Of a stretch of DNA of 64,000 nt, positions 1,346-49,824 are shown one piece after another. The translations under genes and the position numbers were made by a program. The notes beneath the pieces were generated by a model. That model saw only the letters and a list, made by a program, of their open reading frames with translations. It was not told the DNA's origin and ran no database searches. How positions within the stretch are numbered: the stretch's first letter is position 1; every line of letters starts with the position of its first letter. This DNA comes from Candidatus Altimarinota bacterium (GTDB lineage: Bacteria; Patescibacteriota; Gracilibacteria; CAIRYL01): the NCBI GenBank assembly GCA_041739085.1, contig JBGSON010000014.1, forward strand, positions 13,410 through 77,409, read 5' to 3'.

Positions 1346-2194
1346 TTATTTCCTCATTCTCCTTTTCAGCCTCTTCCTCTCCCGTTCCTGGAGAAACACA
1401 AGGGAACCCGCATCATGAGACGTGATCCCCTCTTCAGGAATCATGTCTTGAAGGAGCGCTGCTTCATGGTCGAACGTTCTCCTTCCTCGCGGAGAAATTT
1501 TCGGCTTCGGACGTTTCTTTCGCGTTTCGTACATCCTCTTCGGAGGCATTTCGAGAAAACGCACGATCCGTGTTCTCGTTTTCTCCACCTGTGAAGCAAT
1601 GGTTTTTCGGGTGATGTGTTCAGACTTCCTCGTAAGATCGGGTGTCGGCGCTTCGGCTTCGGCCTGGCACCGAGCGTACTGAGCGGAATTGAAGCAGATG
1701 GAACCCTGCCATCTCAAGAGTTCGCTGATGATGTTCAACATGGTATTTGTCGGAGTAAATCCAAGTGTTTCTTCCGCGAATGGTATTCTTTCATTGTTCT
1801 CAGTGCTGTAATACCAGTCTCGAGACTCAGTATTCTGTTGAAATCTTCCGAAAAATATCCAGAAGCAGGATTCGATTTGATCCCTCGTCTCTTCACTGCA
1901 TCTTCTAAGCAAAGTTTCCATTCTCTCTTTCATACCCCGGATGGAACGTTTCGTTTTTGCGAGAAAATTCTGCCTCCCTGATTGAATTCTCGCGAGAGAA
2001 TTTTTGAGTTTTTCTCTTTCCGTTTCTACCATCTCTGCGAATTCGGGAGAGAGATCGAACGTATTCGAGAGACGGAAATCAACCTCGATGCCATTTTCAC
2101 TTCGAGTGGCGACAAGGTACGGACGAAAGGTCTCCGGCGTCATGCCGAGAATTCGGTTCATCGTGCTCGCCGGAATTTCGGAAGCGGAATCCAT
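1346..2194 (-). CDS. hypothetical protein with a strongly basic C-terminal tail
   Basis: 282-aa ORF with an ATG start. It fills the gap between flanking genes. No recognisable motifs. Confidence 0.5.
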   Translation of the reverse strand: MDSASEIPASTMNRILGMTPETFRPYLVATRSENGIEVDFRLSNTFDLSPEFAEMVETEREKLKNSLARIQSGRQNFLAKTKRSIRGMKERMETLLRRCSEETRDQIESCFWIFFGRFQQNTESRDWYYSTENNERIPFAEETLGFTPTNTMLNIISELLRWQGSICFNSAQYARCQAEAEAPTPDLTRKSEHITRKTIASQVEKTRTRIVRFLEMPPKRMYETRKKRPKPKISPRGRRTFDHEAALLQDMIPEEGITSHDAGSLVFLQERERKRLKRRMRK

Positions 2195-2215: not shown

Positions 2216-3052
2216 TCAGTTCGACCATACCGGGGTACGCTCCTCGGATCGGCCCCGCGCCCTCATCTCATAATGTTTTTCCATTCTCAGAAACGGTGTC
2301 GGGAATCCGATCGTGAACATCCTGCCGTCCACCCCTTGCTCGCGGTACGCCGTTGAACAGAACACTCCGAAGTTCTGCAGAAACCATGTGTGCATATCGG
2401 AAAGCGGCGAATATCGGCAGAGATAAGAATCATCGAGGAATGCCACTCCTCCGAGTTTGAGTGCGCGGGCCACCTCGGAGAGAATCTGAAAGTATCTCTC
2501 CCGATCGCCTCCGTATTCGTTCAGGATAAATTCGAGCACCTGAAACGACTGGAACACATCGACAGAGTTATCCGGAAAAGGAAGCCGCGCGATGTCTCCC
2601 CGGATGGCCTGGGCTCTCCTTCCTTCCGGATACGCGCGGCAGGAGTCTTTCGCGAGACACCAGTCGACATTAAACGCCTGAACATTCTCCGGGCCGTATT
2701 CATCGACGATCCCGTCCGCGCAAACGGATCTCGGCCCTCCTCCGAGATCGACGACCGCGACTTTCGGATCCCGGGTCTTTCTCGCATCCACCCTCCGGTC
2801 GATTTCCAGCCGGAATTTGTTGTTGTATCCGTCACGTGCGTTGAGATATTCAAACGAACGATCCGTGAGCCGGAAAAACGCGGGAGGATCGTCCCGCACA
2901 ATAACCGGCCCCCACAGAGTATTGAGTTCATACCGGAATCCCTCAGGCACGATCACATCCCGTTCCGTGAGGAGCGGAAGTTTTTCAGCAACAGGACAGG
3001 TGAGAGAGTTGCATTCCCGGTAAGTTCTTTCCGTATGCGGTTTTTCGACCAT
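2216..3052 (-). CDS. class I SAM-dependent methyltransferase
   Basis: Motif I VVDLGGGP, then LPFPDNSVDVF and ALKLGGVAFLDD. The track ORF begins at a TTG (3064); the first ATG is at 3052 (MVEKPH...). Confidence 0.75.
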   Translation of the reverse strand: MVEKPHTERTYRECNSLTCPVAEKLPLLTERDVIVPEGFRYELNTLWGPVIVRDDPPAFFRLTDRSFEYLNARDGYNNKFRLEIDRRVDARKTRDPKVAVVDLGGGPRSVCADGIVDEYGPENVQAFNVDWCLAKDSCRAYPEGRRAQAIRGDIARLPFPDNSVDVFQSFQVLEFILNEYGGDRERYFQILSEVARALKLGGVAFLDDSYLCRYSPLSDMHTWFLQNFGVFCSTAYREQGVDGRMFTIGFPTPFLRMEKHYEMRARGRSEERTPVWSN

Positions 3053-3131
3053 GTGTGAAAACAATTGGCGATTATTATTCTATAAATTTACATGTGTGTC
3101 AAACAATGCGCGGCTGGAAAGAGAAAGCCGC

Positions 3132-6100
3132 ATGAGACAAAACTCTGGCTCTTCAGTTTTGTTGACAAACATGTCTTTTGTGTATATCGTTTGCTCCATT
3201 TTTTCATATGTTTTTTTTGCAATGGAGGACTCACGAGATACTCATCCGATTGATACTGATGCAGAGAGAAACGGGGAAATAATTCCGTCGCCGGAACGAT
3301 TACCGGAGCTGGTCATCAAGGACCACCTCCTAAAAACGGAACAGGAGTTCACGGGAGAAGCGGTGAAATTACAGGCATGCGACACCTCCTCCTCTGTTGC
3401 CGTTTTTGAAACGCTCGAGAATTATTTTCGCGCATGGCGGAGGAAACTCCTCATGCGGAATTATCTCAACCGGCAGCATGGCAATATGCGTGAAGCGACT
3501 CCGGAGGGAATGATTCGTTACGTCGAGGAGGCAGGAAATAATACTGATCGATATTGTGGCTATCGCGGCATCCCCGGGGATGATTTTTTCCGCGTAGAAA
3601 TGTTCCCGGCCATCGCAGAACTCGCGGAAACTCCGGAAGATCTTCTGAGGATCGGGAAGGACGCGATTGAGATTCTCAGACTTCTCATGGTGGGAGAGCT
3701 CTCCTATACCACCCACAGCACGACGGACAATCTCCTCTATAAATTCTTCCGAAACACTGGCGTTCCCACAGGATATTCCTGGAATGATGCGACAGGACAA
3801 TTTCGGCATTATTATGCACATTACGAAGCTTCTTTTACCAAAGCAGTCGCGATCCATCAGGGATGGGAATGCGATCGCCATTACGGGGGCAGTGATTATA
3901 CGAATTCCAGAGATGAGATCGATCGGACATTTGTTCCCGTCTATGAAGCGATTCCGGAAAGATGGAGAGATGATGTGTTTGATATTTTTGTGAAATTTGG
4001 AGGCCATCATCATGCGCACCTCTATCTGAAGAAAATCCCCGGAGAAGTAAAATATTTCGTCGATCACGAAAAGGAACACCTCCTCCCCTATTACTTCCGG
4101 CTTCTCCGTTCCACATCGCCCCAGCATGATCTGGAGAATGATGGCGCCATCCTTTTTGATCTTGATCCGCTCGGACAAGAACTGGAAGCGCTTCACGGTT
4201 ATACCGCGCACAGGGAAGAATCACTGGAGTTTGCCGCAGCGGTCATCGGGTGTTATGAATCGTTCGGAAACCGGCACTGGGGAAATGACAAAAACTTTTC
4301 GTTCATAGCCCCGTCGGAGGAAGATAAACAAGAAATGCGCCATGTCGGGTATTTTAATATTCCACGGATCATTGCGTCCCTTGAGAATGACGGATACTCT
4401 CCTGAGGAAATTCGCGATATCCTCGCGCTTCCGGAAAAGTATTCCTGGCTGAAGCATGCCATCTTCCATATTATTGAACACTACGCAGAAATCGATTCGG
4501 GATTATTTCCCGGAGGAGTTTTTGCACTTCTTTCCTATCTCGAAAATTTCCGATCGGCAGAACGCGGGGCGTATAATTTCGTGCAAACCGTTACTGAGAA
4601 AAAACTCCCTGCGTCCGGCCTTGATGAATATCTCGCAGTCGGGACAGAACTGATTCAAAGGCTCGGGAAAAGTGCTAATGATTACTTTGACCTCCGTTCC
4701 TCCGCCTTATTCAGCGTGAAACTCCTCGATCTCCTCCGCAACCCCGGAGTGTTCCGGGATGCGGTGCTTTCGGGATCAACACTCGCGGAAAGTTATCCGT
4801 TTCCAGAAGACGGCATGAGCGGAGACGGGAGATCGACCATACTCGGTGCGTTTTTCGAGCATTACGGCGATCCGCAGTTCGAACGTTTTCTCGAAGGATA
4901 CCGCATCATCATCGCGCGGGCTCATCGGAAAAAGCTGGAACCGAAAGATCCGGAAGATCGTTCCACGCGGGATGAATACCATCTCAGGCGGGATTTCGGA
5001 GAAGCGATCGGTCATTATTCAAGAGTTCAATATCATTTCACGAGAGGAAACCGGAATATCGGCGATGAAAAATCACTTCCGGATATTCCATATGAAGACG
5101 CTTCCCGGATCTGCCTCTTTTTCATTTTTGACAGCAAGACGCACTACATGGACCTCTTCCAGCGTTTTGGAGAACTGGTGCACGACGGAATAGACCACCG
5201 GATTTCAGCCGCACTTGCTGTCTCTCTTACGGATCCGGAGAGGGCATCCTTCCCTGAAATTGAAGGCGTTGAATTCCCCCTGCCGAAGGAAAAAGCGATG
5301 AAGCTATTCGGAGCGATCGTGGAATCGAGGAAAACGGTGACGAGGATCCTCCATGCGGAACGGATGGGGCCGGAACGCGCACTGGAAGCATGTAAACATA
5401 CGCGTTCCTTCATGCGGCCGCCAAAGGAGCGATGGGGATATGACGAAATCATGACCCTCCGAAAGGAGCTCGAGAGACTGGAAGAACTGGAGGCAGATCC
5501 GGAAATAAAGGTACAAATAAATATGGAAAGATTTAAAGCGCTCATCCGTGAAGCGATCAATTTCGGGACTCTGCAAAGGATGATGAATATCGGACTGAGT
5601 CAGGTGAACCTCGATGTCCATGAGACCCCGTTCATGAGAGACTCCAATCCGTATACCCAGATGATCACCGCGGCGGTTTCGCTTTTCGCCGCAGCGGGAG
5701 TGACGGAGATCCCGGGCGTTTCGGAAGGACTGGAAGAGCTTCCATTGCAGAATCCGCTCCTTTCTTCCACACCATCAAAAGAAGAGGAAGATGCCCGTCT
5801 CGCGCTTGTTTTGAAGGATCCGAAATTTGAATCTGCACTCCGAAGAAATATTCACTGTGCGCTTCCGCGAGTGGAACGAATGATCCTTCAGGCGAGAATG
5901 GCAATGCCGGGGCTCATGCCCGTGGGAGGGAAGATCCACACGACGACACCCATGAACAGCGATGTCCTCACCGGGATCCGGAATATTTTCGGACTGGAGA
6001 GTACTCCATTCCAGCTCATCCACGCGAATGATTCCCTCCTCCTCCCTCCGATGCCGAGTGCACTCGAACTCCAGCTCCTCATCCATATTCTGGAAAAATG

Positions 6101-6737
6101 CGGAGTCATTCATTCTGAAAGACCCGAGCTTCAGGTTGCGGTGGGAGACAGATTGCATGAAGATCTTGCCGCTCAGGTCGGATCAGCCGTTCTTCTCGGA
6201 ACGAGCAGGGGGATCGTGTATCCGGATAACGCATTTGCCACGACGCACGACGAGCAAACGGGAACCCGCATCATGGCGTACGATGCCGGAGTGAGAAGAA
6301 GCGGCATGCCGTACGATGTTGCCGGAGCAGAGGGGAGAACCGACATGCTGGGACGGAGACATTACGGAGACATTGGCATTTATCAGCTTCTCGGGACCCT
6401 TGCCGTCCACGAACAGAGAGGCGAAAGATTTGCTCCGCTCATGAGGAGATTTTCCCGTGGGTTTCACGATGTTCTGTCATGTCATGGACTCAGGAATTCT
6501 CTTCATGCATCCGCTTGGATTTTTGATCCGACAAAAAACGGAGATGATCCCGTGAGACATGCTGAGATGGTAAATCGATTCGGGAACGCCTGGATGGAAT
6601 CCATGAATGAGCCGGGATTCGGGATCATCGGAGACGTGAGAAGGCTCATCGAACTCGCATCTCACGAAGTGAGAGCGCAGAGGGAAGATGTTATCGCGGC
6701 AAAACCGGACGAATACGAAGCATTCCTCCGGTATTGA
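3132..6737 (+). CDS. giant orphan protein A (about 1200 aa); its C-terminal module is paralogous to giant protein B
   Basis: Single uninterrupted ORF 3051-6737. Candidate starts are 3051, 3132 (purine-rich gaaagagaaag upstream), 3171 and 3222. With the 3132 start the N-terminus is MRQNSGSSVLLTNMSFVYIVCSIFSYVFFAMEDS, which looks like a signal or anchor segment. I recognise no known family. Confidence 0.8.
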   Translation: MRQNSGSSVLLTNMSFVYIVCSIFSYVFFAMEDSRDTHPIDTDAERNGEIIPSPERLPELVIKDHLLKTEQEFTGEAVKLQACDTSSSVAVFETLENYFRAWRRKLLMRNYLNRQHGNMREATPEGMIRYVEEAGNNTDRYCGYRGIPGDDFFRVEMFPAIAELAETPEDLLRIGKDAIEILRLLMVGELSYTTHSTTDNLLYKFFRNTGVPTGYSWNDATGQFRHYYAHYEASFTKAVAIHQGWECDRHYGGSDYTNSRDEIDRTFVPVYEAIPERWRDDVFDIFVKFGGHHHAHLYLKKIPGEVKYFVDHEKEHLLPYYFRLLRSTSPQHDLENDGAILFDLDPLGQELEALHGYTAHREESLEFAAAVIGCYESFGNRHWGNDKNFSFIAPSEEDKQEMRHVGYFNIPRIIASLENDGYSPEEIRDILALPEKYSWLKHAIFHIIEHYAEIDSGLFPGGVFALLSYLENFRSAERGAYNFVQTVTEKKLPASGLDEYLAVGTELIQRLGKSANDYFDLRSSALFSVKLLDLLRNPGVFRDAVLSGSTLAESYPFPEDGMSGDGRSTILGAFFEHYGDPQFERFLEGYRIIIARAHRKKLEPKDPEDRSTRDEYHLRRDFGEAIGHYSRVQYHFTRGNRNIGDEKSLPDIPYEDASRICLFFIFDSKTHYMDLFQRFGELVHDGIDHRISAALAVSLTDPERASFPEIEGVEFPLPKEKAMKLFGAIVESRKTVTRILHAERMGPERALEACKHTRSFMRPPKERWGYDEIMTLRKELERLEELEADPEIKVQINMERFKALIREAINFGTLQRMMNIGLSQVNLDVHETPFMRDSNPYTQMITAAVSLFAAAGVTEIPGVSEGLEELPLQNPLLSSTPSKEEEDARLALVLKDPKFESALRRNIHCALPRVERMILQARMAMPGLMPVGGKIHTTTPMNSDVLTGIRNIFGLESTPFQLIHANDSLLLPPMPSALELQLLIHILEKCGVIHSERPELQVAVGDRLHEDLAAQVGSAVLLGTSRGIVYPDNAFATTHDEQTGTRIMAYDAGVRRSGMPYDVAGAEGRTDMLGRRHYGDIGIYQLLGTLAVHEQRGERFAPLMRRFSRGFHDVLSCHGLRNSLHASAWIFDPTKNGDDPVRHAEMVNRFGNAWMESMNEPGFGIIGDVRRLIELASHEVRAQREDVIAAKPDEYEAFLRY

Positions 6738-6759
6738 TTTAATACAGATCTGTGCAATC

Positions 6760-7950
6760 TTATCGGCTCATGAATTCCGGGAGGATCTTTCTCGCTTCTT
6801 CCTCACCGAAGAGTTCCGTGAGGCGTTGTCTCAACTGAGAGATAGCAATTCCTTTGTTCGGTCCCGAGAGATCCTCAATCGGTGTCCCCATTTTTTGACT
6901 TACGGCCATGAGGAGACCATTCTGAAATTTTCTTCGGGCTGCATCTTTCGCAGCATTCGTATGTTTTGTCTTATGCCGAGGTTCTTCCGCTTTTGCCTGC
7001 GAGAGAAGTGCTGCGATTTCCGCTCTCATCTCGCCTGATATGGCGCCCCTCAATCCAAGGAATCCCTTAACTCTTTCCTTCCACCCGAGCGGTTTTACGT
7101 CAGGTGCTACGGCTACGGGAGGTGCGGAGGGAGAAACTTCCTCTTTTACGACTGAAGTCGAAGGAGCAAGCGCAAAAAAATCCATATTCTGTATTCGCTC
7201 CGCTTCTTCTCTTCTTCTCCTCTTTTTTTCCGCTCTCTGTTGCGCTTCTGATTGTTTTCCCTGCCCGCTCGTATGTCGCGGCTTTGTCCACAGTGTCGAT
7301 GAAACAGAGGGTTTTGCTGTATCCGGTGGAGTTGGAGGCGTAACTCCTTTCGGCTTCAGTTGTTCGACCGGTTTTTCCGCTGCAGGAGCCGGAAGAGTTG
7401 TTCTTTCCGGTTCGTGCGCCTTTGGAGGAGTCGCATCCACCACCACTCCGTCCACCGTTCTGGTTTCAACGGGTAATGTCTTTGGGGAAGGCGTCTTCGT
7501 TTCCGATGTTCTCTGCGGCTTCGGAGCCGGGACCGTGGCTTCATGAGGAGCATTTCCCGCGAGTTTTCCTTCCACTTTCGGAGTACCGGCTCTTTCGTCT
7601 ATTTCCTCACGCCGATGATCTACCAGCGGGAGCGCCAAGAGTGATCCTGCGGCTCTGCCGATGTGCTCTGCAGTTACTTCGATGACGACGTCTCCATCTC
7701 CATCGCCATCATCCTCTTCTCCAAGATCTAAACCTCTTTCTTCCATTTCATCTCCGAGGAAATCGAGTTCATCACCGCTACCGGCGTCTTCACGGGAGAG
7801 CTCGGCAGGCGGGAGCGCTTTTGGTCCCTCTCGTTCCGGGAATCGCGGGAGAGTCGCTTCCCGTGCTCCGCTTCCGACATGTCGATGGGTTTCACACATA
7901 GTTTTTGGGAAAAATGAAAAATCAATGAACGGCCTCACGGCTTGCTTCAT
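6760..7950 (-). CDS. low-complexity acidic and Pro/Thr/Lys-rich (probably disordered) protein with a helical C-terminal region
   Basis: 396-aa ORF with an ATG at 7950 that overlaps the stop of the upstream giant ORF by 29 nt. Contains DELDFLGDEMEERGLDLGEEDDGDGDGD, long PxxP/TP-rich tracts and a KKRRRREEAER patch. An alternative ATG is at 7899. Confidence 0.7.
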   Translation of the reverse strand: MKQAVRPFIDFSFFPKTMCETHRHVGSGAREATLPRFPEREGPKALPPAELSREDAGSGDELDFLGDEMEERGLDLGEEDDGDGDGDVVIEVTAEHIGRAAGSLLALPLVDHRREEIDERAGTPKVEGKLAGNAPHEATVPAPKPQRTSETKTPSPKTLPVETRTVDGVVVDATPPKAHEPERTTLPAPAAEKPVEQLKPKGVTPPTPPDTAKPSVSSTLWTKPRHTSGQGKQSEAQQRAEKKRRRREEAERIQNMDFFALAPSTSVVKEEVSPSAPPVAVAPDVKPLGWKERVKGFLGLRGAISGEMRAEIAALLSQAKAEEPRHKTKHTNAAKDAARRKFQNGLLMAVSQKMGTPIEDLSGPNKGIAISQLRQRLTELFGEEEARKILPEFMSR

Positions 7951-10900
7951 TTCTGTATTTATTTTCCAGTAAGCTTTCTTGGACTACTCTAACACTTTCT
8001 CTGAGCCAGTCAAATAATTTCCGGGCTTCGAAAATGATCCCCTGTTCTTCCCCTGTTTCGCTGTACCGGTCAGCACAGGCGAAATACGCATCCGTGCAAA
8101 CTCTTACATTTTCATAATGCCTTTTTCCTGCTCCGGTGGTGCTATTTCCATTACCGCAAATCCAGTTTTCATCCAGGACTTGTTCCATTCCATATTTTCG
8201 AAGGATCTGAAGATATCTCTTTTTGAATTCTTCGGCGAAGTCTCCAAATGGACCACCGTATTTTTCCTGCGCGAGAACGGAATGAAGGAGCTGAAAAAGC
8301 TTCATATCATTCGGATGTCTCCGCCCGAGCATATCTGTTCTTCCGGAAAATCCATTCGTGTTGGGGAGGCGCGCATTTTGAGCTCCTGCGTCGTACGCCA
8401 TCATGCGCGCTCCGGTAGATGCGTCATGAGTAGTAGAGAACGCTTTTTCGTCATATTCAACGCCTCTTTCTGTCGCAAGGAGAATGGCACTCCCGAGTAT
8501 CCCAGCTTGATACGGATCGAGTCTTCCGACTCCGCTCACCTGGAGTTCCGGGAATTCGCTGTCGATAACGCCGCTCGCGTCGAGGACGTATAAAATAGAC
8601 TGCAGTTCTTCCGCACTCGGCATCGGAGGAAGGAGGAGGGATGTATTGGCGTGAATCAATCGGAATGAGGTCTGACCAAACTGGAAAAGTCCCCGGAACA
8701 TCTCAAAATGCTCAGTCTCAATGGGATGGAGCACATGGATTTTTCCTCCCACCGGGAGTAGTCCGATGGCATTGTCCCGCCACATCTCAATCGTTTTCCT
8801 CGCCAGCGGGATCGCTTTTTTGCACGCGCTTCTGAAGTCCGAATCGGTGGGCTGAAGGTGTTTTACGGAAATGCCCGCGGGAACGAGTGAACGTCTTCCT
8901 CCTCTCCTCACTTCCACAGCTTTCGGATTGCTCTGGATCGACTCTTCTCTCAGCGCCACTATTGCGGGACGCGATGAGGTTTCCGGTTTCTGCTCAATGG
9001 TGAGTGTCCCGAGAAGCGTTGTTATGGAGAGAGAGGTCGATGTGGCGGATGCAAGCTCCTGATTCTCTCTTGAGTCATTTCCTCTCCCGATATCATCCAG
9101 GAATTTCTGGAATTCGCCTTCTGTCCTCAGGGAGCGGATTGTGTTCCATACTTGAACATAACCGTATATCCCGAGATGCGCCTCAAAAATCCGGTCGAGT
9201 GCATCGTCTGTTAAAAACAGAATCCCCTTGATTCCCTCAGTCAGGATATCTTTTTCCCTTGCGATTGCGGACACCCATTCCTGCAACGTGTCTCCGCCAT
9301 TCTCCCGTTGAGAACGAAGCTTCTGCATCATGCTCCATTCGAGTGTTTTTATCTCCTCGATGCAGGTTGAGACGGCAAGGAGGGTTAAAAAGAACTCTTT
9401 GATCCGGGACTGAAAATTTCCGATGAGAAACGGATGCTGAAGGCTTTCGCGAAAAGCCCGGACATTGATGATGCCGAGATCCTGAAATTCCGCAATCATT
9501 CGGAGACTGTCCGAATACTCCTGTTCACCGAAAAGAGTTTCTCCCATATTTATTTCCGGACCTTTTCCTGTTTTCCAGAGGACGAGATGACAGGAAAGGG
9601 GGAGGGATATCTCATCGCACGTGAGAATTCCGGTTGTTACGAGGAGGTGGAGGGCGACGATGTAATCCATCTGAGAGGAGACGAATTCAAACCGCTTCTG
9701 CCATTTCTCTTCTGTCGGTTCCATATACTCTCTTTCTATATCATGCTGAAGGTATGCTTCTTCTGATTCGCTCCAGCCCACTTTCGTTTCTTCGTCCGCA
9801 TCATCTTTCCAGGAATCATCTTCAAATTCTTCCGGATGAGCTTTCCGATATTCCTCATTTTCTTTTCGCTGTGCAATTTTTCTCTCCCGAACACGCGTTT
9901 CGCACTCCTTTTTGAATTCCTCACCTGGTTCTTCCGTCATCCAGTCAAACAGCCCCATGAGTTCTTTCCACGAAAAAAGTCCCATGATCCAGACATCGAG
10001 GAGATTGGAAATGATCATGATCCGGTCTACCGTTCTTTCCGCGTTCCTTTCCGCCTGAGCATATCTCTCATTTGGCTGACACATGAATGAATGTTTGTAC
10101 TCTGGATCAGGAATGCGGTTGAATTTCTGGAGAAAACGGAGGAATCCTTTGGGGGGACGGAAAGGATCCGGCATTTTGAGAGCAAAAACGGAAAAATAGG
10201 GTGCCGTGACTTCTTCGTCGATCCATCCGCATTCTTCCCGGACCTGCTCATAGAACTCGAGAAAGCCCAGGAGCGGCGTGATTTCTGAACTTCCTCCGGC
10301 GGGGAGTAAATTTTGTTTCGCGACAGGAAGGGCAAGGACACCGTCCAGGTTTGCGGCGAGAAGGCGACAGGTATCGGACCTCACCCTGAGTGCCGGCGGC
10401 GTTTTCGCTCTTTCCGAAAGCGGTTTTCTCAGCGGTTCGACGAGCTCTTTGAGGAGTCCGGACGTGATGGTCACTTCATCTCTTTTTTCCCTTTCCATCC
10501 TTTCTCTACCAAACGCAGCATGGACAAGGCCGTACATTCCCGGGAAATTAAAAACCGCCTCTTCCCCCTCCAGCCTACCGATAATTTCGGTCCTCGGCTT
10601 CTGCCTTTCCATGTGTTTCATGAGCATCTCCGTTGCATCCCCTCTTCTGTCCGATGGGATTTCCTGAAGAAAATCCAGGACGAATTCGAGGAGATTCGCG
10701 GCTCTCCGCGGATTTCCGATCCCGTACATTTTTGTAATGCGGGCGGTAAACTGAACTGATTCAGTTATGGAAAATCCGTCAAGTTCTGCAAGCTTATAGC
10801 CCGCAATCTGATAGGCTTCGAGGACAAACTCAAAGGCAAAAGCGGCGTGAGCCGCGATTTCTGAGACGATTTTTCTGCCCGTTTCGCTGTTCCCAATTTC

Positions 10901-11965
10901 AAGCCTCCCCTGAGTGACCCGGCTTCTTTCTTTTTTTTCATCAAATACTTTTCTCATATCCATATCCTCCTTGAACCACCACGGCTCTTTTTCTCCATGA
11001 TAAATGTCAGTTATAACCTGGAGAGAATAGAGAAGCGCTTCTCTGGATTCGAGCCCCGCCTTTCTCTGATATTGAAAAAGTTCTGAGAGGCGATCGATGA
11101 TGAGTCCATTCTCAAGGCATGGCGGGAGTAATGTGAAACGGCTCATGATGTCCGGATCCAGGATGAGATCCGGCGTGAGGTGTTTTGAGTTTCTCAGAAG
11201 AAAACAGGTGAGCTCAGGACTCAAGAAATCCGGGAAATGTTCCTGCGCCGCGGCTAGAAGATCCCTTCTCTTCTCATCCAATTTGTAATGTCTCGGTGGC
11301 TTCAGTGAGTGTGAAGTTGTGTTGCATACTTTCGGAGCCATGTATGCATATCCGTGTTCCGTGTACGCTGGTGGAAAATCCCCGCCGTGCTGCATCGCCA
11401 TGAGCCACCCGATTGCGATTTGAGTGTGTCTCATCGCCCATTCAAACGGATGCGTTATGGTTTCATCCCGGAGATAGGGTGCGACAAATCTCGGGTAAAG
11501 CTTTGGTCCGATATGTTCTCCCGACCACTCGTCTGACTGGAATTGCGAGTAGTAGAGCCCCTCTCCGATCTGCTCTTCCGTCGGTTTTCGACATCTCCGG
11601 ATTCCGAGTGTGACGGTTGCCGCATCATCGTAAAGAGCCACCGATCCGACCCTCGTGGTATTGGCGCCACGGATTCTCCTCTCAAAACGCTCGATGATGT
11701 CTTCCGCGCTGCAATGTCTTCCGATGTTGGTGAGCATGCGGCCTTCCACTGATGCCCAGTCGTGGTTCAATGTGAATTTACTCCATTCGCACGTGGGGAG
11801 ACGAAGGTGAAGCGGATTTCTTGTATGATGAGAAGCACGAGTCAGTTCATCCTCAAGTTTGCAGTACGGGGAATTGCCAGAATGCTCTCTGATTTTCTCC
11901 TGCGTTCTCTCTTCAACACATTCCAATTCATGTTCCCGCCATTTTGTACCAAGATCATCTTGCAC
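7922..11965 (-). CDS. giant orphan protein B (1347 aa); its C-terminal module is paralogous to giant protein A
   Basis: Uninterrupted 4 kb ORF with an ATG start and an AT-rich upstream region. The C-terminus (GLLPVGGKIH...LIHANTSLLLPPMPSAEELQ...GRTDMLGRRH) aligns by eye with protein A. Confidence 0.85.
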   Translation of the reverse strand: MQDDLGTKWREHELECVEERTQEKIREHSGNSPYCKLEDELTRASHHTRNPLHLRLPTCEWSKFTLNHDWASVEGRMLTNIGRHCSAEDIIERFERRIRGANTTRVGSVALYDDAATVTLGIRRCRKPTEEQIGEGLYYSQFQSDEWSGEHIGPKLYPRFVAPYLRDETITHPFEWAMRHTQIAIGWLMAMQHGGDFPPAYTEHGYAYMAPKVCNTTSHSLKPPRHYKLDEKRRDLLAAAQEHFPDFLSPELTCFLLRNSKHLTPDLILDPDIMSRFTLLPPCLENGLIIDRLSELFQYQRKAGLESREALLYSLQVITDIYHGEKEPWWFKEDMDMRKVFDEKKERSRVTQGRLEIGNSETGRKIVSEIAAHAAFAFEFVLEAYQIAGYKLAELDGFSITESVQFTARITKMYGIGNPRRAANLLEFVLDFLQEIPSDRRGDATEMLMKHMERQKPRTEIIGRLEGEEAVFNFPGMYGLVHAAFGRERMEREKRDEVTITSGLLKELVEPLRKPLSERAKTPPALRVRSDTCRLLAANLDGVLALPVAKQNLLPAGGSSEITPLLGFLEFYEQVREECGWIDEEVTAPYFSVFALKMPDPFRPPKGFLRFLQKFNRIPDPEYKHSFMCQPNERYAQAERNAERTVDRIMIISNLLDVWIMGLFSWKELMGLFDWMTEEPGEEFKKECETRVRERKIAQRKENEEYRKAHPEEFEDDSWKDDADEETKVGWSESEEAYLQHDIEREYMEPTEEKWQKRFEFVSSQMDYIVALHLLVTTGILTCDEISLPLSCHLVLWKTGKGPEINMGETLFGEQEYSDSLRMIAEFQDLGIINVRAFRESLQHPFLIGNFQSRIKEFFLTLLAVSTCIEEIKTLEWSMMQKLRSQRENGGDTLQEWVSAIAREKDILTEGIKGILFLTDDALDRIFEAHLGIYGYVQVWNTIRSLRTEGEFQKFLDDIGRGNDSRENQELASATSTSLSITTLLGTLTIEQKPETSSRPAIVALREESIQSNPKAVEVRRGGRRSLVPAGISVKHLQPTDSDFRSACKKAIPLARKTIEMWRDNAIGLLPVGGKIHVLHPIETEHFEMFRGLFQFGQTSFRLIHANTSLLLPPMPSAEELQSILYVLDASGVIDSEFPELQVSGVGRLDPYQAGILGSAILLATERGVEYDEKAFSTTHDASTGARMMAYDAGAQNARLPNTNGFSGRTDMLGRRHPNDMKLFQLLHSVLAQEKYGGPFGDFAEEFKKRYLQILRKYGMEQVLDENWICGNGNSTTGAGKRHYENVRVCTDAYFACADRYSETGEEQGIIFEARKLFDWLRESVRVVQESLLENKYRNEASREAVH

Positions 11966-23489: not shown

Positions 23490-23724
23490 GCGGAAAAACT
23501 GAAAAGGATATAATGAGTATAGACTCTGCACTGATCGTTACCTCCTTGTCAGTTAACTTCTCTACAACTATTTCTGAGGGGGAAACAGGTCTTTGGGCAC
23601 GCTGATGCGTTCTCTCGTCCTTCCCCACTTTGTTTCCCAGGGAAACAATTGCAAGGGACGAACGACAGGGGCGGAGTTTTCCCTTAAAGACTTTCTCCAG
23701 ATACACTCTTTCATTCACGACACA

Positions 23725-24750
23725 ATGGAATATGGGGAGCATCAAAACGATGAGAAAAACATCCATCAGCCGAAATCTTCGACCGGGATCACCGCTTTCT
23801 GCCATAAGCACAACCGTCCCTATGACCCTGAATCCTCTGATGGATGCGTCCTCTGCACATCGAGCCATCTCTTCTCGAAGCACGAACGCTGCCACAGTAT
23901 TCTTCCGAGGTTCTTTCTTCCCGTGCTGATTTTGCTCTTCTTCTTCGGGGCCGGGTATGTTCTCGTCTCATTTTATCTGAATACCTCAACGCCACCGTCT
24001 CCGATAAGCGAAAAAATCGATCCCGAGACGGAGAAAGACCTCATCCTTCAGATCGAAGACATCCTGTATGATGAACCTTCCATCGCGTTCGAAAGAGGAG
24101 CTCAGCTCGAAGCGATTACTACTGAACTGGCAGGAGATGTGCGCTCGTATGATTCTGATTTCTCCATGAAAGAAAGGACAGAGGCATTTTTCTCCTATTC
24201 TTCTCTCATTGGATCGATGCTGGAAGTCGGATATGGAGGGATCGATATCGAAACAGCGAGAAGAGAATGGGAGAAACTGAGGGATTCGGTCTTCACGGAG
24301 GCGGAATGGTTCCGGTCTTCTTCCCCGCTCAGTGCAGGGGACGATAGAGAAGTCCCCCTCGCGTCCGACGCAGAGGCGAATTCTGTCTCGATCGAATCGT
24401 TTGATTACACGATCCGCCGTCTCGAATCACTCCTGGCACTGGGAAAGGAAACCGGACTCAGTTACGATGCTGAAAATGACACAGGCGGATGGGATGCCTT
24501 CCGGGATGACTGGGATAGCGAGATTGAGGAACTCCGAAGGATCTTTCCCGATGCTCCTCTTTCAAATGATGATGAGCAGATCATGAAGTCATACATTTTT
24601 CTTACGAACGCCCTCCTGGAACTTTCATCGTTCTCCTCCTCAGTGAGCGGAGAAATCATCCCCGACGTGCATGAGAGAGAGGCTCATCTCGATCTGGCCG
24701 GGGATCACATTAAAAAAGCCCGTGAACATCTCATGCTGCTTTCTAAGTAG
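23725..24750 (+). CDS. hypothetical membrane-anchored protein (CxxH..CxxC N-terminus, one TM segment, acidic C-terminal domain)
   Basis: MEYGEHQ..CHKHNRPYDPESSDGCVLC, TM segment FLPVLILLFFFGAGYVLVSFYL. The track ORF starts at 23593; I prefer the ATG at 23725. Confidence 0.55.
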   Translation: MEYGEHQNDEKNIHQPKSSTGITAFCHKHNRPYDPESSDGCVLCTSSHLFSKHERCHSILPRFFLPVLILLFFFGAGYVLVSFYLNTSTPPSPISEKIDPETEKDLILQIEDILYDEPSIAFERGAQLEAITTELAGDVRSYDSDFSMKERTEAFFSYSSLIGSMLEVGYGGIDIETARREWEKLRDSVFTEAEWFRSSSPLSAGDDREVPLASDAEANSVSIESFDYTIRRLESLLALGKETGLSYDAENDTGGWDAFRDDWDSEIEELRRIFPDAPLSNDDEQIMKSYIFLTNALLELSSFSSSVSGEIIPDVHEREAHLDLAGDHIKKAREHLMLLSK

Positions 24751-46671: not shown

Positions 46672-49056
46672 TTATACTGGATTTTTTCTTTGATGCTGAT
46701 TTTTTGATTCTTTCCCGCTCTCTTCTTTCTCACCACTCCATTTCCGGATCTTGTCTTCAATTATCTTTCGTTCGACTCCATACTTCTCACGTGAAAGGCG
46801 GAATATTTTTTCAATCGACTCTGCGTCGGCTTCGACGGTTAGCGGAGGAAAGGTCGACGCAGAAAACACCGGCGTCGGAAGTCCGTCGATGAGGAGCCGG
46901 AGATAGATCGCTCCCCTTGAGAGGCTGACGAGATCCGCCGCTTCCACTTTCTCGGAATACTGTTTCATGAGCGCTTCTGCATCCTCAAAACCGACCTGGA
47001 AGGAGATGAGCGTCCCGACGTTCCCGAATATGGCATCCCGCACCATCTCGTTCATCTGAGCGATATACTGATTCGCCATGATAAGCGCGAGCTTGTATTT
47101 TCTTGCTTCGGAGAGGATGGATGCAAAACTTTCGGTGGCAAAATTCTGGAATTCATCGATGAAGAGATAAAAATCCCTTCGCTCGTCATGCGGGATGTCT
47201 GCGCGGCTCATCGCTTCTATCTGAAACTTTGTGATGAGCACTGATCCGAGGAGCATAGAGACATCCTCTCCGATCTTTCCTTTCGAGAGATTGATGATGA
47301 GGATCTTCCCTTTGTCCATCACCCATCGCAAATGAAATTTGGATTTGATCTGTCCGAGGATGTTTCTGAGGATCGGATTTCCGAGGAACTGACCCACTTT
47401 ATTGAGGATCGGGCTGATCCACTCTGTTCTCGTCCTCTCCTGGAGCGGTTCAAACTCATTTTCCCAGAAATCTTTGAGGATCGGGTCATCGAGCTGATTC
47501 AGACACTGCTTTCTGAATGCTTTATTCGTCAGTATCTTCGGGATGGCGAGGATGCTCACGTCATTGCAGTGGAGCAGGGTGAGGATCGTGTTTCTTAAAA
47601 TATGTTCTAGTCGCGGGCCCCAGCTCTCCGCATAGAGCTTTTTAAATACTCCGACGAGACCTGATGCGATCGTGCTCCTCTCTTTTTCATCTTTGCACTC
47701 CATGATGTTATAGGAGATGGGGTAGTCGACGTCAGACGGGTCAAAGTGGATCACATCATTGATACGGCTTTTCGGGACGAAATGGAGCGCTCGTTCTGCA
47801 AGATCTCCGTGCGGATCAATAACAGCGATCCCCTTTCCTGACTGCATGGCATCGAAGATCATGTTTTCGAGGAGTGTTGTTTTTCCCATACCGGTCCTTC
47901 CGATGATGTAGACATGCCTCAGGATGTCCTTCTCCTGGAGTCCGAAGGGGATCCTCCGGGAATGATGGTTAGAAGCTCCAATTTTCAGGATCGCATTCTT
48001 CATGGTAATGGTCGCCGGCGGCTCGATCTTCCGGAATGAACTCCATGTGAGCTTGGGGATTTCCAGTTCACCGAGGGGAACATGGATGAGGCTCGCGAGT
48101 TCTTCCGTGCTGAAAATATTCGATTTCTTCGCCACTTCTCTTGTGAGGAACTCTTCGATGGATTTCAGGGGCTTCATGGGAGTTGGCTCGAGTCTCCCGA
48201 GCTGGGGATCGTTGAAGGTAAGGAGTGATGTTGCTATGGATTGGTATATGGACTCTGCATCCTCCTTTGCTCCTTTTGTCGCTACGAGGATCCTCATATT
48301 CACCCGGAAGAGTTTCTTCAGAAGTTTATCTGCCGCTCGTGAATATTCGAATGAAACGGTGCTTTTTTTCGTCTCATCCCCTTCGACGTTCTGCGAACTG
48401 GAGACTCTCGTCGCTCTCTGCCCTGCTACGACTTCCTTTCCCTTCCGGAATCCGTGGAGCGCCCAGATGAAATAGGCAAGTTTTCCGAACGCATCCTGTC
48501 TCGTATATGAGCGGAGAAAGGGCTTCTCAAGCATCCAGTAGAGTCCTTGTGCTATCGTGATCCCCTTGAGTCCCCTCTTTGCGACTTTTTGGGAACAGGA
48601 GCTGCAGGAGATCTGGAGTGATATGATGTCATCCGGAGATTCGATGTTCGAGAAAGCGGAAAGAACAGGCTTCAGCGTGTCATGGTATTTCTTCATCTCC
48701 TCAAGTCCGAAATCGACATATGACTTGATCGGAAAAACAAAAGACTCGCTCTGAAGGATCTCGCCTCCATAGACCTTCCTTTTCCCAATGCTGAGGAGGT
48801 AGTCTTTCGCTTCATGGATCTCGATCATGGGATATGCCGCAAGGATCTGGCTTCTCAGAAAGCTCTTGTTCTTGGTCGGGACGGAAAAAATAAGCGATAT
48901 GTAATCCTTATGCGCAACGATCTCAAACGAGAAACTGGCACACCGGTTTTTTTCATTTTGAAGTTCGTGGAGTGTCATGAGGAGATTTTCCGCAACTTTA
49001 AGCTCCGAAAGGTTCAGCTTCGAGAGCGTAAGCACGAGATGGGAAAGTTTCTCCAT
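46672..49056 (-). CDS. TraD/VirD4-family (T4SS coupling-protein-like) P-loop ATPase
   Basis: Walker A IIGRTGMGKTTLL, IAVIDPHGDL, Walker B FYLFIDEFQNFAT, LIMANQY. The track start at 49077 is a TTG; the ATG is at 49056. I see no obvious N-terminal TM segments. Confidence 0.7.
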   Translation of the reverse strand: MEKLSHLVLTLSKLNLSELKVAENLLMTLHELQNEKNRCASFSFEIVAHKDYISLIFSVPTKNKSFLRSQILAAYPMIEIHEAKDYLLSIGKRKVYGGEILQSESFVFPIKSYVDFGLEEMKKYHDTLKPVLSAFSNIESPDDIISLQISCSSCSQKVAKRGLKGITIAQGLYWMLEKPFLRSYTRQDAFGKLAYFIWALHGFRKGKEVVAGQRATRVSSSQNVEGDETKKSTVSFEYSRAADKLLKKLFRVNMRILVATKGAKEDAESIYQSIATSLLTFNDPQLGRLEPTPMKPLKSIEEFLTREVAKKSNIFSTEELASLIHVPLGELEIPKLTWSSFRKIEPPATITMKNAILKIGASNHHSRRIPFGLQEKDILRHVYIIGRTGMGKTTLLENMIFDAMQSGKGIAVIDPHGDLAERALHFVPKSRINDVIHFDPSDVDYPISYNIMECKDEKERSTIASGLVGVFKKLYAESWGPRLEHILRNTILTLLHCNDVSILAIPKILTNKAFRKQCLNQLDDPILKDFWENEFEPLQERTRTEWISPILNKVGQFLGNPILRNILGQIKSKFHLRWVMDKGKILIINLSKGKIGEDVSMLLGSVLITKFQIEAMSRADIPHDERRDFYLFIDEFQNFATESFASILSEARKYKLALIMANQYIAQMNEMVRDAIFGNVGTLISFQVGFEDAEALMKQYSEKVEAADLVSLSRGAIYLRLLIDGLPTPVFSASTFPPLTVEADAESIEKIFRLSREKYGVERKIIEDKIRKWSGEKEESGKESKNQHQRKNPV

Positions 49057-49278
49057 GGAAATGGTGTGACTTCTCAATGGTGAAGTATAGCAAATATCCC
49101 CTTTTTTACAATGAAGGAAGAAGCTGCAAGCACAAAACAGAAAAGAGCTTAGAGTGACTTGCTGATAACTACAGGGGGCCTCCTCGGCGCTTGAGTGCTT
49201 GCTCGCTTCAATGCCCGCAGAGTCAAACTCTTCTATGCATCCAACGAGACTTTACGAACTTTACAAACCTTATGAACG

Positions 49279-49815: not shown

Positions 49816-49824
49816 GGAGAGAGA

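What the first reader, a model, noticed from the sequence alone, without database searches (positions are those of the whole stretch)
5910..8768. Shared C-terminal module of about 200-270 aa in both giant proteins
By eye the two C-termini align over about 190 residues with roughly half the positions identical. A reads GLMPVGGKIH...FQLIHANDSLLLPPMPSALELQ...PELQVAVG...FATTHDEQTGTRIMAYDAG...GRTDMLGRRH. B reads GLLPVGGKIH...FRLIHANTSLLLPPMPSAEELQ...PELQVSGVG...FSTTHDASTGARMMAYDAG...GRTDMLGRRH. The invariant His, Asp, Glu and Arg residues (GGKIH, IHAN, PELQV, TTHD, YDAG, RTDMLGRRH) look like an enzymatic active site rather than a structural repeat. The N-terminal about 950-1050 residues of the two proteins show no similarity I can see. 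That pattern would fit a common catalytic or anchoring domain fused to divergent targeting regions. One speculation only: the order of His-containing strand, AN-S loop and R/D/R-rich strand faintly recalls carboxylate-amine ligase (glutamine synthetase/GCS2/amidoligase) folds.
Basis: seen in the sequence. Interest (0 to 1): 0.75.

Follow-up and report, generated by a model that had tools for sequence, protein, structure and literature searches.

The report
New enzyme-like domain with disordered partner
Two large proteins of an uncultured candidate-phyla-radiation (CPR) bacterium share a real, unannotated enzyme-like end domain whose predicted fold resembles glutamine synthetase and Pup ligase, and genes carrying it are nearly always followed by a small disordered protein starting Met-Cys-x-x-His.

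Summary
The C-termini of A (3222..6737 +) and B (7922..11965 -) align at 40% identity over 305 aa (E=1e-54), and at 54% over the 151-aa core. The N-terminal regions are unrelated (hhalign probability below 1%).

The module has no Pfam, NCBIfam, PADLOC or PDB sequence match. An exhaustive profile search still found 357 cluster representatives, and the module is C-terminal in all 150 hits listed. Named sources are Peregrinibacteria, Peribacteria, Gracilibacteria and BD1-5 genomes.

K41, Q108, R176, D178 and H250 are present in at least 146 of 147 modules. An AlphaFold model (pLDDT 94) hits PafA, glutamine synthetase, YbdK and Dop in the PDB, and phage amidoligases in BFVD. Scores are weak (E about 1e-4 to 1e-2, TM about 0.3). 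The superfamily's strand-1 signature GhExE is replaced by G-x-K-x-H, so this is a GS-like fold with a different active site.

New here: 20 of 21 non-redundant loci with the K-x-H form carry a same-strand downstream gene for a disordered protein (52-613 aa) beginning M-C-x-x-H. In the window it is 7899..6760 (-).

My best guess, with low confidence, is an enzyme acting on this partner's N-terminus, as PafA acts on Pup. Toxin-immunity and docking models remain open.

The parts
3222..6737 (+). Large protein A, 'A-type' family. 1171 aa from the public gene call; the ORF extends upstream to 3051.
   Evidence: P0012 is identical to A from Met58. At least 20 full-length homologues at about 25-37% identity. 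55 of the top 150 representatives share this N-terminal type.
3222..5810 (+). A-type N-terminal region, about 860 aa. No predicted transmembrane segment and no known domain. Conserved motifs include GQFxYFY, QGxxxDxHYxGxDY and FPGGxxxLxxYL.
   Evidence: Alignment A5. No Pfam hit in 35 members. Only noise in the PDB profile search. Hydropathy scan.
5811..6734 (+). Shared C-terminal module of A, 308 aa. Predicted GS/PafA/amidoligase-like alpha/beta core (residues 38-182) followed by a helical bundle (187-307).
   Evidence: BLASTP. AlphaFold2 pLDDT 94.1 and pTM 0.93. Foldseek. 357 homologues.
5925..5939 (+). First core strand motif G-G-K-I-H (K41 and H43 of the module, K961 and H963 of the long ORF). 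It sits where carboxylate-amine ligases have G-h-E-x-E.
   Evidence: K in 146/147 modules. H in 134/147, E in 9. Codons checked. Canonical motif from PMC2588565.
6126..6152 (+). Third strand E-L-Q-V-A-V-G-D-R. Contains Q108 (146/147) and R114 (135/147).
6240..6284 (+). T-T-H-D...T-G-T-R-I-M-A-Y-D segment. T144, T150, R153 and D158 are highly conserved; H146 and D147 only moderately.
6336..6344 (+). Last core strand motif R-T-D. R176 and D178 are invariant in 147/147.
6558..6560 (+). H250 in the C-terminal helical bundle, present in 146/147.
6760..7899 (-). Partner gene, 379 aa, starting 22 nt after the stop codon of B. The product looks intrinsically disordered and is rich in P, E, A and K. 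It has a conserved N-terminus MCETHRHVGSGAREATLP and a C-terminal helix ending ...KILPEFMSR.
   Evidence: Public gene call of 379 aa. Translation. The equivalent M-C-x-x-H gene lies directly downstream of module genes in 20 of 21 non-redundant K-x-H loci.
7846..7899 (-). Conserved N-terminal peptide of the partner: M-C-x-x-H-[RKH]-x-[LVI]...[ED]-x-x-[LIV]-P.
   Evidence: Among the 19 partners that start MC, His5 is present in 18. Translation.
7922..11965 (-). Large protein B, 'B-type' family, 1347 aa. The true start may lie further downstream.
   Evidence: P0013 is identical to B. Full-length homologues at 24-35% identity. 48 of the top 150 representatives share this N-terminal type.
8852..11965 (-). 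B-type N-terminal region, about 1040 aa, unrelated to the A-type region. Conserved motifs include PFEWA, PWWFKEDFDL, YGIGNxxRA and KMPDPFxPPxGFL.
   Evidence: Alignment A6. hhalign of A-type against B-type N-terminal regions gives probability 0.5%. Only noise in the PDB profile search.
7925..8851 (-). Shared C-terminal module of B, 309 aa. Conserved residues are K1075, H1077, Q1142, R1148, D1192, R1209, D1211 and H1283.

Best explanation
The shared region is a previously unannotated, autonomously folding C-terminal domain of about 300 aa.

Fold and active site. Its predicted core is a curved antiparallel sheet with helices on one face, of the glutamine-synthetase / PafA / YbdK / amidoligase type, followed by a helical bundle. 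It has its own catalytic signature: K-x-[HE] on the first strand, Q on the third, D158, R-x-D on the last strand, and H250. It does not have the Glu-rich Mg/ATP site of classical carboxylate-amine ligases.

Distribution. The family appears restricted to the Gracilibacteria-Peregrinibacteria-Absconditabacteria branch of the candidate phyla radiation. The domain is the constant C-terminal end of at least two unrelated large soluble protein families, A-type and B-type. The window carries one of each, in convergent orientation. Several smaller architectures also exist.

Partner. The domain works with a co-transcribed, intrinsically disordered partner protein. This partner has a variable length (52-613 aa) and an N-terminus that is almost invariably Met-Cys-x-x-His.

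Inferred mechanism. The partner's N-terminal peptide, probably with Cys exposed after Met removal, docks in the conserved concave site of the module. There it is chemically modified or ligated. This would be an enzyme plus dedicated disordered protein substrate or cofactor, analogous to PafA/Dop with Pup, and to GCS2, whose amine substrate is cysteine. The large N-terminal regions would supply target or scaffold functions.

Shown: the homology, the conservation pattern, the confident model, the fold-level hits and the gene pairing.

Inferred: catalysis itself, the partner as substrate, and the chemistry.
For: 1. A and B modules share 40% identity over 305 aa, E=1e-54.
2. The exhaustive HMM search found 357 representatives. 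The module is C-terminal in all 150 listed.
3. K41, Q108, R176, D178 and H250 are present in at least 146/147 modules. H43, H71, E86, R114, T150 and D158 are present in 84-95%. Alternating conserved polar residues on strands (K41/H43, E106/Q108, R176/D178) point to one face of a sheet.
4. The AlphaFold2 model has pLDDT 94.1 and pTM 0.93.
5. Foldseek on two independent models puts PafA first (E=2e-4, probability 0.97), followed by GS, YbdK and Dop. In BFVD about 14 of the top 38 hits are named amidoligase. All belong to one superfamily (PMC2588565). The second strand-1 position is H or E, as in the superfamily's Ex[EH].
6. A partner gene starting M-C-x-x-H lies 1-58 nt (rarely up to about 320 nt) downstream on the same strand in 20 of 21 non-redundant K-x-H loci. 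This includes AT-rich genomes that read UGA as Gly, and a 1974-aa family member.
7. The minimal partners (52-65 aa) are Pup-sized.
8. Correlated change: in the clade where strand 1 is K-x-E, three downstream ORFs lack the Cys and one locus has no partner. That is 0/4 against 20/21.
9. Taxonomy: all 10 loci from GTDB species genomes are Peregrinibacteria, Peribacteria, Gracilibacteria, Altimarinota or a BD1-5 MAG. None were found in viral contigs.
Against: - The fold match is weak in absolute terms: TM 0.27-0.35, rmsd 12-19 Å, best E=2e-4. I could not inspect coordinates or residue-level superpositions.
- The defining acidic motifs for ATP/Mg binding (GhExE, [HD]x[NH], Ex[RK]x2D) are not present as such. 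ATP-dependent ligation is therefore not implied.
- hhalign against PF12224 and GCS2 profiles found nothing (probability at most 0.2%). The positive control between those two true relatives reached only 5%, so this test has little power.
- No direct evidence exists that module and partner interact.
- Protein A in the window, one gene of the L005/L021 tandem pair, and L019 have no partner of their own.
- In L010 and L008 the Cys is not at position 2.
- The K-x-E co-variation is a single clade, so it counts as one evolutionary event.
- The N-terminal regions have no assignable function.
Confidence: 0.45

Rival explanations
1. Effector or toxin domain with an immunity protein or antitoxin. The C-terminal module would be a toxic enzyme delivered to, or active against, host or prey cells of these episymbiotic or predatory CPR bacteria. 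The downstream disordered protein would neutralise it in the producer by plugging the active site with its N-terminal Cys-x-x-His peptide.
For: The layout 'C-terminal enzymatic domain plus a small gene immediately downstream on the same strand' is the classic polymorphic-toxin/immunity and type II toxin-antitoxin arrangement. Several paralogues occur per genome, with tandem copies. One partner serves two module genes in tandem or convergent pairs (window, L005/L021). Different N-terminal regions carry one C-terminal domain. VirB4- and VirD4-like type IV secretion genes lie in the window at 46.6-54.6 kb.
Against: Polymorphic toxins have conserved N-termini and variable C-terminal toxins; here it is the reverse. 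No signal peptide, transmembrane segment or known trafficking domain (LXG, Rhs, PT-HINT and so on) was found in any member. There are no PADLOC or Pfam toxin or immunity hits. Immunity proteins are normally globular and co-vary with the toxin. They do not normally have 50-600-aa disordered linkers and an invariant N-terminal Cys. The secretion genes are more than 35 kb away.
Confidence: 0.2
2. Non-catalytic docking module (pseudo-enzyme). The former active site has become a binding pocket, possibly metal-bridged through His43/His71/His250 with the partner's Cys2/His5. It would anchor the large proteins to a flexible tether protein, whose C-terminal amphipathic helix binds another component.
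For: The Mg/ATP-binding glutamates of the superfamily are lost. The module's conserved residues include several His, and the partner's invariant residues are Cys and His, which are typical metal ligands. When module H43 becomes E, the partner loses its Cys. The partner is built as a conserved N-peptide, a linker of variable length and a C-terminal helix, which fits a tether.
Against: Invariance of a K, Q, R, D, H constellation at 146-147 of 147 positions, across sequences only 25-50% identical overall, is more typical of catalysis than of peptide docking. No partner for the C-terminal helix is known. There is no direct metal evidence.
Confidence: 0.2
3. An ordinary ATP-dependent carboxylate-amine ligase (GCS2, amidoligase or GS-like) that makes a small molecule or peptide. 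The downstream gene would be an unrelated neighbour.
For: Top structural neighbours are such ligases. L003 has a run of ATP-grasp ligase genes upstream.
Against: The strand-1 GhExE signature is replaced by G-x-K-x-H in all members, and other signature motifs are absent. There is no Pfam, NCBIfam or hhalign similarity. The partner gene is conserved in 20 of 21 K-x-H loci, far beyond chance. No conserved metabolic neighbours were found.
Confidence: 0.05
4. The similarity is a chance or compositional artefact, or a recent local duplication without functional meaning.
For: None found.
Against: E=1e-54 between A and B. 316 database representatives at E<=1e-10. Each protein has its own full-length orthologues in other genomes, so the duplication is ancient.
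Confidence: 0.01

Closest known systems
Pup ligase PafA / depupylase Dop (Pfam PF03136) with Pup
   Same: Best structural match in the PDB (4bjr, E=2e-4, probability 0.97; Dop entries 9cku, 7oyh and 7oy3 also listed). Both have a GS-type sheet 'cradle' followed by helices. Both are associated with a small intrinsically disordered protein. The minimal partners here are 52-65 aa, and Pup is about 64 aa (Pup length from my own knowledge).
   Different: There is no sequence or Pfam similarity. The strand-1 GhExE is replaced by G-x-K-x-H. The partner's conserved element is N-terminal (M-C-x-x-H), not a C-terminal GGQ/GGE. The partner can be up to 613 aa long. The module is the C-terminal end of 1000-2000-aa proteins. 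The organisms are CPR bacteria, not Actinobacteria. No proteasome link was examined or seen.
YbdK / GCS2 carboxylate-amine ligase (Pfam PF04107)
   Same: Recurrent PDB structural hit (1r8g, 1tt4; E about 1e-2). Similar size for the sheet core plus C-terminal helices. Its amine substrate is cysteine, which makes the partner's N-terminal Cys suggestive.
   Different: hhalign gives probability 0.16%, and nothing against the single YbdK sequence. The GhExE, HxH and ExRxxD motifs are absent. YbdK is a stand-alone 372-aa enzyme.
Phage/bacterial Amidoligase_2 (Pfam PF12224)
   Same: Dominates the BFVD structural hits (H9D1D3 E=2.5e-3; about 14 of the top 38 named amidoligase). It is a compact GS-like domain of about 270 aa, comparable to the module. 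The alignment spans nearly the full length of both proteins.
   Different: hhalign probability is 0.1%. The canonical G-x-E-x-E, H-x-H-x-N and E-x-R motifs are invariant in 120 amidoligases, and none are present in the module. No module relatives occur in viral contigs.
Glutamine synthetase (Pfam PF00120) and guanido kinases / McsB (GS fold)
   Same: GS 8oox is the third PDB hit (E=1.8e-3). McsB 6fh2 appears weakly (E=0.14). A basic first strand (K-x-H) is more reminiscent of the Arg-rich first strand of guanido kinases (my own knowledge).
   Different: No sequence similarity. No N-terminal GS beta-grasp domain. No guanido-kinase signature motifs.
Polymorphic toxin / immunity and type II toxin-antitoxin gene pairs
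   Same: A C-terminal enzymatic domain with a tightly linked small gene immediately downstream. Multiple paralogues per genome.
   Different: The constant and variable ends are reversed. There are no trafficking domains. The partner is disordered, with an invariant N-terminal Cys-x-x-His.

Membership tests
Carboxylate-amine/ammonia ligase superfamily (GS fold; defined in PMC2588565) | Six core strands (order 231465) forming a saddle-shaped sheet, with conserved helices after strands 3 and 6 | tested here: inconclusive
   The AF2 model (pLDDT 94) has strands 38-44, 74-81, 106-112, about 144, 155-157 and 176-182. Helices follow the third (117-130) and last (187-203) strands. Foldseek ranks superfamily members first in two libraries, but TM is about 0.3.
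Carboxylate-amine/ammonia ligase superfamily (GS fold; defined in PMC2588565) | Strand-1 Ex[EH] motif (GhExE), which binds Mg2+/ATP | tested here: not met
   The first strand reads G-[GA]-K-[IV]-[HE]. Lys is present in 146/147. The second position is H in 134 and E in 9. Only the [EH] position is compatible.
Carboxylate-amine/ammonia ligase superfamily (GS fold; defined in PMC2588565) | Conserved acidic residues on strands 2 and 3 | tested here: inconclusive
   Third strand: E or D at position 106 in 120/147 and Q in 21. No conserved acidic residue lies on the second strand. E86 (130/147) lies at the start of the following helix.
Carboxylate-amine/ammonia ligase superfamily (GS fold; defined in PMC2588565) | Strand-4 [HD]x[NH] motif | tested here: not met
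   The candidate segment T144-T-H146-D147 has H in only 96/147 and D in 80/147. It does not fit the pattern.
Carboxylate-amine/ammonia ligase superfamily (GS fold; defined in PMC2588565) | Arg on strand 5 plus an Arg in the preceding loop | tested here: inconclusive
   R153 (119/147) immediately precedes strand 155-157, and R114 (135/147) follows strand 3. Equivalence to the canonical arginines cannot be shown without a superposition.
Carboxylate-amine/ammonia ligase superfamily (GS fold; defined in PMC2588565) | Strand-6 Ex[RK]x2D motif | tested here: not met
   The last core strand is G-R176-T-D178 (R and D in 147/147). It has no conserved Glu two residues before the Arg, and the spacing is R-x-D rather than R-x-x-D.
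Carboxylate-amine/ammonia ligase superfamily (GS fold; defined in PMC2588565) | Detectable profile-profile sequence similarity to a member family | tested here: not met
   hhalign of the module (147 sequences) against PF12224 (120 sequences) gives probability 0.1%. Against YbdK/GCS2 (106 sequences) it gives 0.16%. The test has low power: the control PF12224 against GCS2 gave probability 5%, E=0.007.
Pup ligase family PafA/Dop (PF03136) | Match to the Pfam/NCBIfam family model | tested here: not met
   No Pfam hit even at E<=10 for 10 modules. No NCBIfam hit.
Pup ligase family PafA/Dop (PF03136) | A small disordered modifier protein with a C-terminal GGQ/GGE | tested here: not met
   A disordered partner is present in 20 of 21 K-x-H loci. 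Its C-termini are not conserved at the last residues (...EFMSR...FLKEQQ...LRDKK), and its conserved element is the N-terminal M-C-x-x-H.
Pup ligase family PafA/Dop (PF03136) | Genomic or functional link to proteasome and Mpa/ARC ATPase genes | not tested
   No such genes were noticed among the annotated neighbours. No dedicated search was made.
Amidoligase_2 (PF12224) | G-x-E-x-E, H-x-H-x-N and E-x-R motifs, and a match to the family model | tested here: not met
   These motifs are invariant in 120 PF12224 proteins and absent from the module. There is no Pfam hit. Only weak fold-level hits were found.
Polymorphic toxin / immunity systems | C-terminal toxin domain followed directly by a small cognate gene | tested here: met
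   A same-strand downstream ORF is present in 20 of 21 K-x-H loci, usually 1-58 nt after the stop codon.
Polymorphic toxin / immunity systems | N-terminal secretion or trafficking domain, with a conserved N-terminus and a variable C-terminal toxin | tested here: not met
   No signal peptide or transmembrane segment. No Pfam domains in 35 A-type, 39 other and 9 locus proteins. Here the C-terminus is the constant part.

The most novel reading that the evidence does not exclude
Gracilibacteria-lineage CPR bacteria may have a previously unknown protein-modification or conjugation system. A retooled GS/PafA-fold enzyme domain, carried by several families of large cytoplasmic proteins, would use or modify the exposed N-terminal cysteine of a dedicated, Pup-like intrinsically disordered protein. 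It might ligate a carboxylate to its alpha-amine or thiol, or use the protein as a tag. The chemistry would not rely on the classical Glu-Mg-ATP site.
Probability: 0.2. Interest if true: 0.85.

Novelty: new variant of a known kind. Interest (0 to 1): 0.7.

Why it matters
CPR bacteria have tiny genomes, yet some of these genomes carry more than one 3-6 kb gene with this domain. The window, L005/L021 and L006 each have two side by side.

The domain is absent from Pfam, NCBIfam, PADLOC and the PDB. It nevertheless has 357 cluster representatives and a near-invariant polar constellation.

If it is an enzyme, it would be a third way of using the GS fold. The first two are the Glu/Mg ligases and the Arg-rich guanido kinases.

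The near-universal pairing with a disordered M-C-x-x-H protein gives a concrete hypothesis that can be tested at the bench. The enzyme and its probable protein partner are both in hand.

The result also gives annotators a definable new domain family and a new small-protein family for a poorly understood lineage.

Tried and rejected
- Sequence annotation: Pfam, NCBIfam and PADLOC scans of A, B and the middle ORF found nothing.
- Pfam at relaxed thresholds: 10 modules at E<=10, 35 A-type proteins and 39 other architectures gave only scattered noise and no fused known domains.
- PDB sequence searches: nothing with the single module or with the module profile A2 at E<=10. Profiles that included the N-terminal regions (A3, A5, A6) returned only designed helical proteins and coiled coils, which I rejected as compositional.
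- hhalign, all negative: module against a single YbdK sequence; module against PF12224; module against GCS2; N-terminal regions against the module and against amidoligase; A-type against B-type N-terminal regions.
- An insignificant hhalign path placed G-G-K-I-H on YbdK's G-Q-H-V-H (strand 4). I noted this but did not adopt it, because Foldseek alignments span the full length of small amidoligases.
- Conserved-neighbour search across 13 loci: only the partner gene and SLH-domain proteins recur. The SLH proteins carry unrelated catalytic domains and are probably just abundant in these genomes.
- Transmembrane and signal-peptide scan: no consistent hydrophobic segment.
- Viral contigs: no relatives.
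- Literature: the key amidoligase paper (Iyer 2009) is not held. Searches linking amidoligases to CPR found nothing relevant.

Full report
**Anatomy of the locus**

The region holds three genes.
- A runs on the + strand from 3051 (long ORF) or 3222 (public gene call, 1171 aa) to 6737.
- B runs on the - strand from 11965 to 7922 (1347 aa).
- A third gene follows B 22 nt after its TGA stop codon, at 7899..6760 on the - strand (379 aa in the public call). It ends 22 nt from the stop codon of A.

So A and the B-partner operon converge.

Flanking genes are ordinary bacterial ones. They include a TrmB-like HTH protein, a methyltransferase, a CDF transporter, a flavoprotein, tRNA-Ser, ZupT, IspH, carbamate kinase, a short IF-2, AlaRS, SecDF, and VirB4- and VirD4-like ATPases. 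TGA is used as a stop codon.

**Observation check**

BLASTP aligns A 923-1218 with B 1041-1336 at 40% identity over 305 columns, E=1e-54. No other A-B segment is significant.

**The N-terminal regions**

A and B each have full-length homologues elsewhere. A has at least 20 at about 25-37% identity over roughly 1100 aa, and B has a similar set.

Among the 150 best database representatives, 55 share the A-type N-terminus and 48 share the B-type. About 25 have other, shorter N-termini.

Profile-profile comparison of the A-type and B-type N-terminal regions gives a probability of 0.5%. Neither region resembles the module. Both contain sharply conserved motifs of their own. Neither has a Pfam or PDB sequence relative. 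There are no consistent hydrophobic segments, so these look like soluble proteins.

**The module as a family**

Nothing is found in Pfam, NCBIfam, PADLOC or PDB sequences.

The word-indexed protein search found only 10 relatives. The exhaustive HMM search of 1.84 billion cluster representatives found 357 at E<=1e-3 and 194 at E<=1e-30. The module is C-terminal in all 150 hits listed.

Several relatives show W where G is conserved (P0007-P0009). This is the signature of UGA=Gly genomes translated with the wrong code.

All ten loci recovered from GTDB species genomes are Peregrinibacteria, Peribacteria, Gracilibacteria, Altimarinota or a dolphin-mouth BD1-5 MAG. No relatives were found in viral contigs.

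**Conservation within the module**

Across 147 modules:
- R176, D178 and F67 are invariant.
- K41, Q108 and H250 are present in 146.
- W236, T150, D158, F142, R114, H43, T177 and E86 are present in 88-96%.

**Structure**

With 12 sequences, AlphaFold2 gave pLDDT 80. With 103 sequences it gave pLDDT 94.1 and pTM 0.93.

The model consists of:
- a long N-terminal helix;
- an alpha/beta core with strands at 38-44, 74-81, 106-112, about 144, 155-157 and 176-182;
- a helical bundle from 187 to 307.

Foldseek results:
- PDB, both models: PafA is first (E=2-3e-4, probability 0.97), with glutamine synthetase, YbdK/GCS2 and Dop next. ACT, TBP and KH folds follow at clearly worse scores.
- BFVD: the top of the list is dominated by phage amidoligases.

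All of these belong to the carboxylate-amine ligase superfamily of the GS fold (PMC2588565). The convergence of two libraries and two models makes a fold-level relationship likely. Individual scores are weak, however (TM about 0.3).

**Membership of the superfamily**

The superfamily is defined by these motifs:
- GhExE on strand 1;
- acidic residues on strands 2 and 3;
- [HD]x[NH] on strand 4;
- arginines around strand 5;
- Ex[RK]x2D on strand 6.

The module has G-G-K-I-[HE] on its first strand and R-T-D on its last. It has no convincing strand-4 motif.

hhalign against 120 PF12224 amidoligases, and against 106 YbdK proteins, found nothing. The control between those two true relatives reached only probability 5%. 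This negative result is therefore weak evidence.

I file the module as GS-fold-like, but not as a member of any known family. I do not assume ATP/Mg chemistry.

**The partner gene (new)**

I listed the genes around module genes in other loci. The next gene on the same strand almost always starts M-C-x-x-H-[RKH]. About 8-10 residues later comes [ED]-x-x-[LIV]-P. A P/E/K/S/R-rich stretch of very variable length follows. The protein ends in an amphipathic C-terminal helix, which in about half the cases ends P-x-F-[LM]-[KR].

The window's middle gene is one of these: MCETHRHVGSGAREATLP...KILPEFMSR.

Further look-ups of divergent members gave the same result. These included two AT-rich UGA=Gly genomes (MCDEHRHLGK, MCVEHRHLGG) and the 1974-aa protein P0141 (MCGDHEKVVPG).

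In total, 20 of 21 non-redundant loci with the K-x-H module have the partner. Partner lengths range from 52 to 613 aa. Gaps between the genes are mostly 1-58 nt.

Tandem or convergent pairs of module genes can share one partner (window; L005/L021). Alternatively each can have its own (L006). L019 has none.

**Correlated change**

A clade of A-type-like proteins has K-x-E instead of K-x-H on the first strand. Three of its members have a short downstream ORF that lacks the Cys: MGTPAEYMPATEV, MSTEGRHMPATVERD and MGSAGTHLAAEAV. A fourth has no partner.

This gives 0/4 against 20/21 (Fisher p=4e-4). It is a single clade, so the evidence is suggestive only.

The residue after Met is small (C, G or S) in all of these partners. 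From general knowledge of Met-aminopeptidase specificity, the second residue should therefore be exposed as the new N-terminus.

**Interpretation**

Four lines of evidence bear on function:
- a conserved polar constellation on alternating strand positions;
- a GS/PafA-like fold, in which the active site lies on the concave sheet face;
- a dedicated, co-transcribed, Pup-sized-to-long disordered protein with an invariant N-terminal Cys-x-x-His;
- the correlated change between module and partner.

Together these best fit an enzyme that binds and acts on the partner's N-terminus. PafA/Dop with Pup is the closest functional analogy. GCS2, which ligates glutamate to the amine of cysteine, is the closest chemical one.

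Because the Mg/ATP glutamates are gone, the chemistry may differ. I give this mechanism about 45% as a whole.

The rivals are:
- a toxin-immunity or toxin-antitoxin pair (about 20%);
- a non-catalytic, possibly metal-bridged docking module (about 20%);
- a classical small-molecule ligase (about 5%).

Artefact is excluded.

**Novelty and verdict**

I found no description of this domain or of the partner family in the libraries or the literature searched.

It is a new variant of a known fold class with a new gene partnership, confined to a poorly understood bacterial lineage.

Noticed in passing
window 6760..7899 (-); also L003-L013, L017-L030: A conserved partner gene lies directly downstream of module genes. 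It encodes a disordered protein of 52-613 aa that starts M-C-x-x-H-[RKH] and often ends ...P-x-F-[LM]-[KR]. It is present in 20 of 21 non-redundant loci.
   Followed up: yes
L031 3948-4130, L032 7107-7304, L033 4628-4927, L034: In the module subfamily with K-x-E instead of K-x-H on the first strand, the downstream small ORF lacks the N-terminal Cys (it starts MG or MS), or is absent. This is a possible co-variation between module residue 43 and partner residue 2. It rests on one clade only.
   Followed up: partly
window 3051..3221: The long ORF of A starts 57 codons upstream of the public gene call (Met58 at 3222). The extra N-terminus contains the only hydrophobic stretch of the protein (VLLTNMSFVYIVCSIFSYV). 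Homologues align only from about residue 118. Likewise B's GTG start at 11965 may be too far upstream, since homologues align from about residue 90.
   Followed up: partly
L001 108-1995, L004 18-1637, L005 11730-15464, L006 16552-18297, L011 11919-14567, L013 5391-6554: SLH-domain (S-layer homology) proteins with different catalytic parts (beta-propeller, S41 peptidase and others) lie within a few kb of module genes in 6 loci. This may simply reflect how common SLH proteins are in these genomes.
   Followed up: partly
P0007, P0008, P0009; L027, L028: Homologues from UGA=Gly (code 25) genomes were deposited with Trp at conserved Gly positions (for example SIWGKIH and WRTDMLG). Their neighbourhoods are fragmented into tiny gene calls when read with the standard code.
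   Followed up: partly
window 46672..54617 (-): VirD4/TraG-like coupling protein (801 aa) and VirB4/TraG P-loop ATPase (714 aa) flank a SecDF gene. This is a type IV secretion-like cluster of the kind described for Patescibacteria. It lies more than 35 kb from the module genes.
   Followed up: no
window 34845..37649 (-): A 934-aa ORF with no Pfam match. ORFs 23593..24750 (385 aa) and 1346..2194 (282 aa) also have no family match.
   Followed up: no
C-terminal end of A (window 6696..6734) and of A-type homologues: A-type proteins end in a conserved P-[ED]-E-[YF]-x-x-[LF]-[LM]-x-Y, with Tyr as the very last residue (...PDEYEAFLRY, ...PEEYERLMRY, ...REEFDRLLKY). B-type C-termini are not conserved.
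   Followed up: no
L001/L002 8722-11221 versus L004 7433-10927: The same A-type gene is intact (1164 aa) in one assembly and broken into several short ORFs in two others. P0002, at 406 aa, is only the C-terminal piece. This is either a pseudogene or assembly/frameshift errors.
   Followed up: no
L005 2664-9180 / L021 3193-9756; L006 4985-12154: Tandem pairs of A-type module genes occur. One pair shares a single partner gene, and in the other each gene has its own partner.
   Followed up: partly
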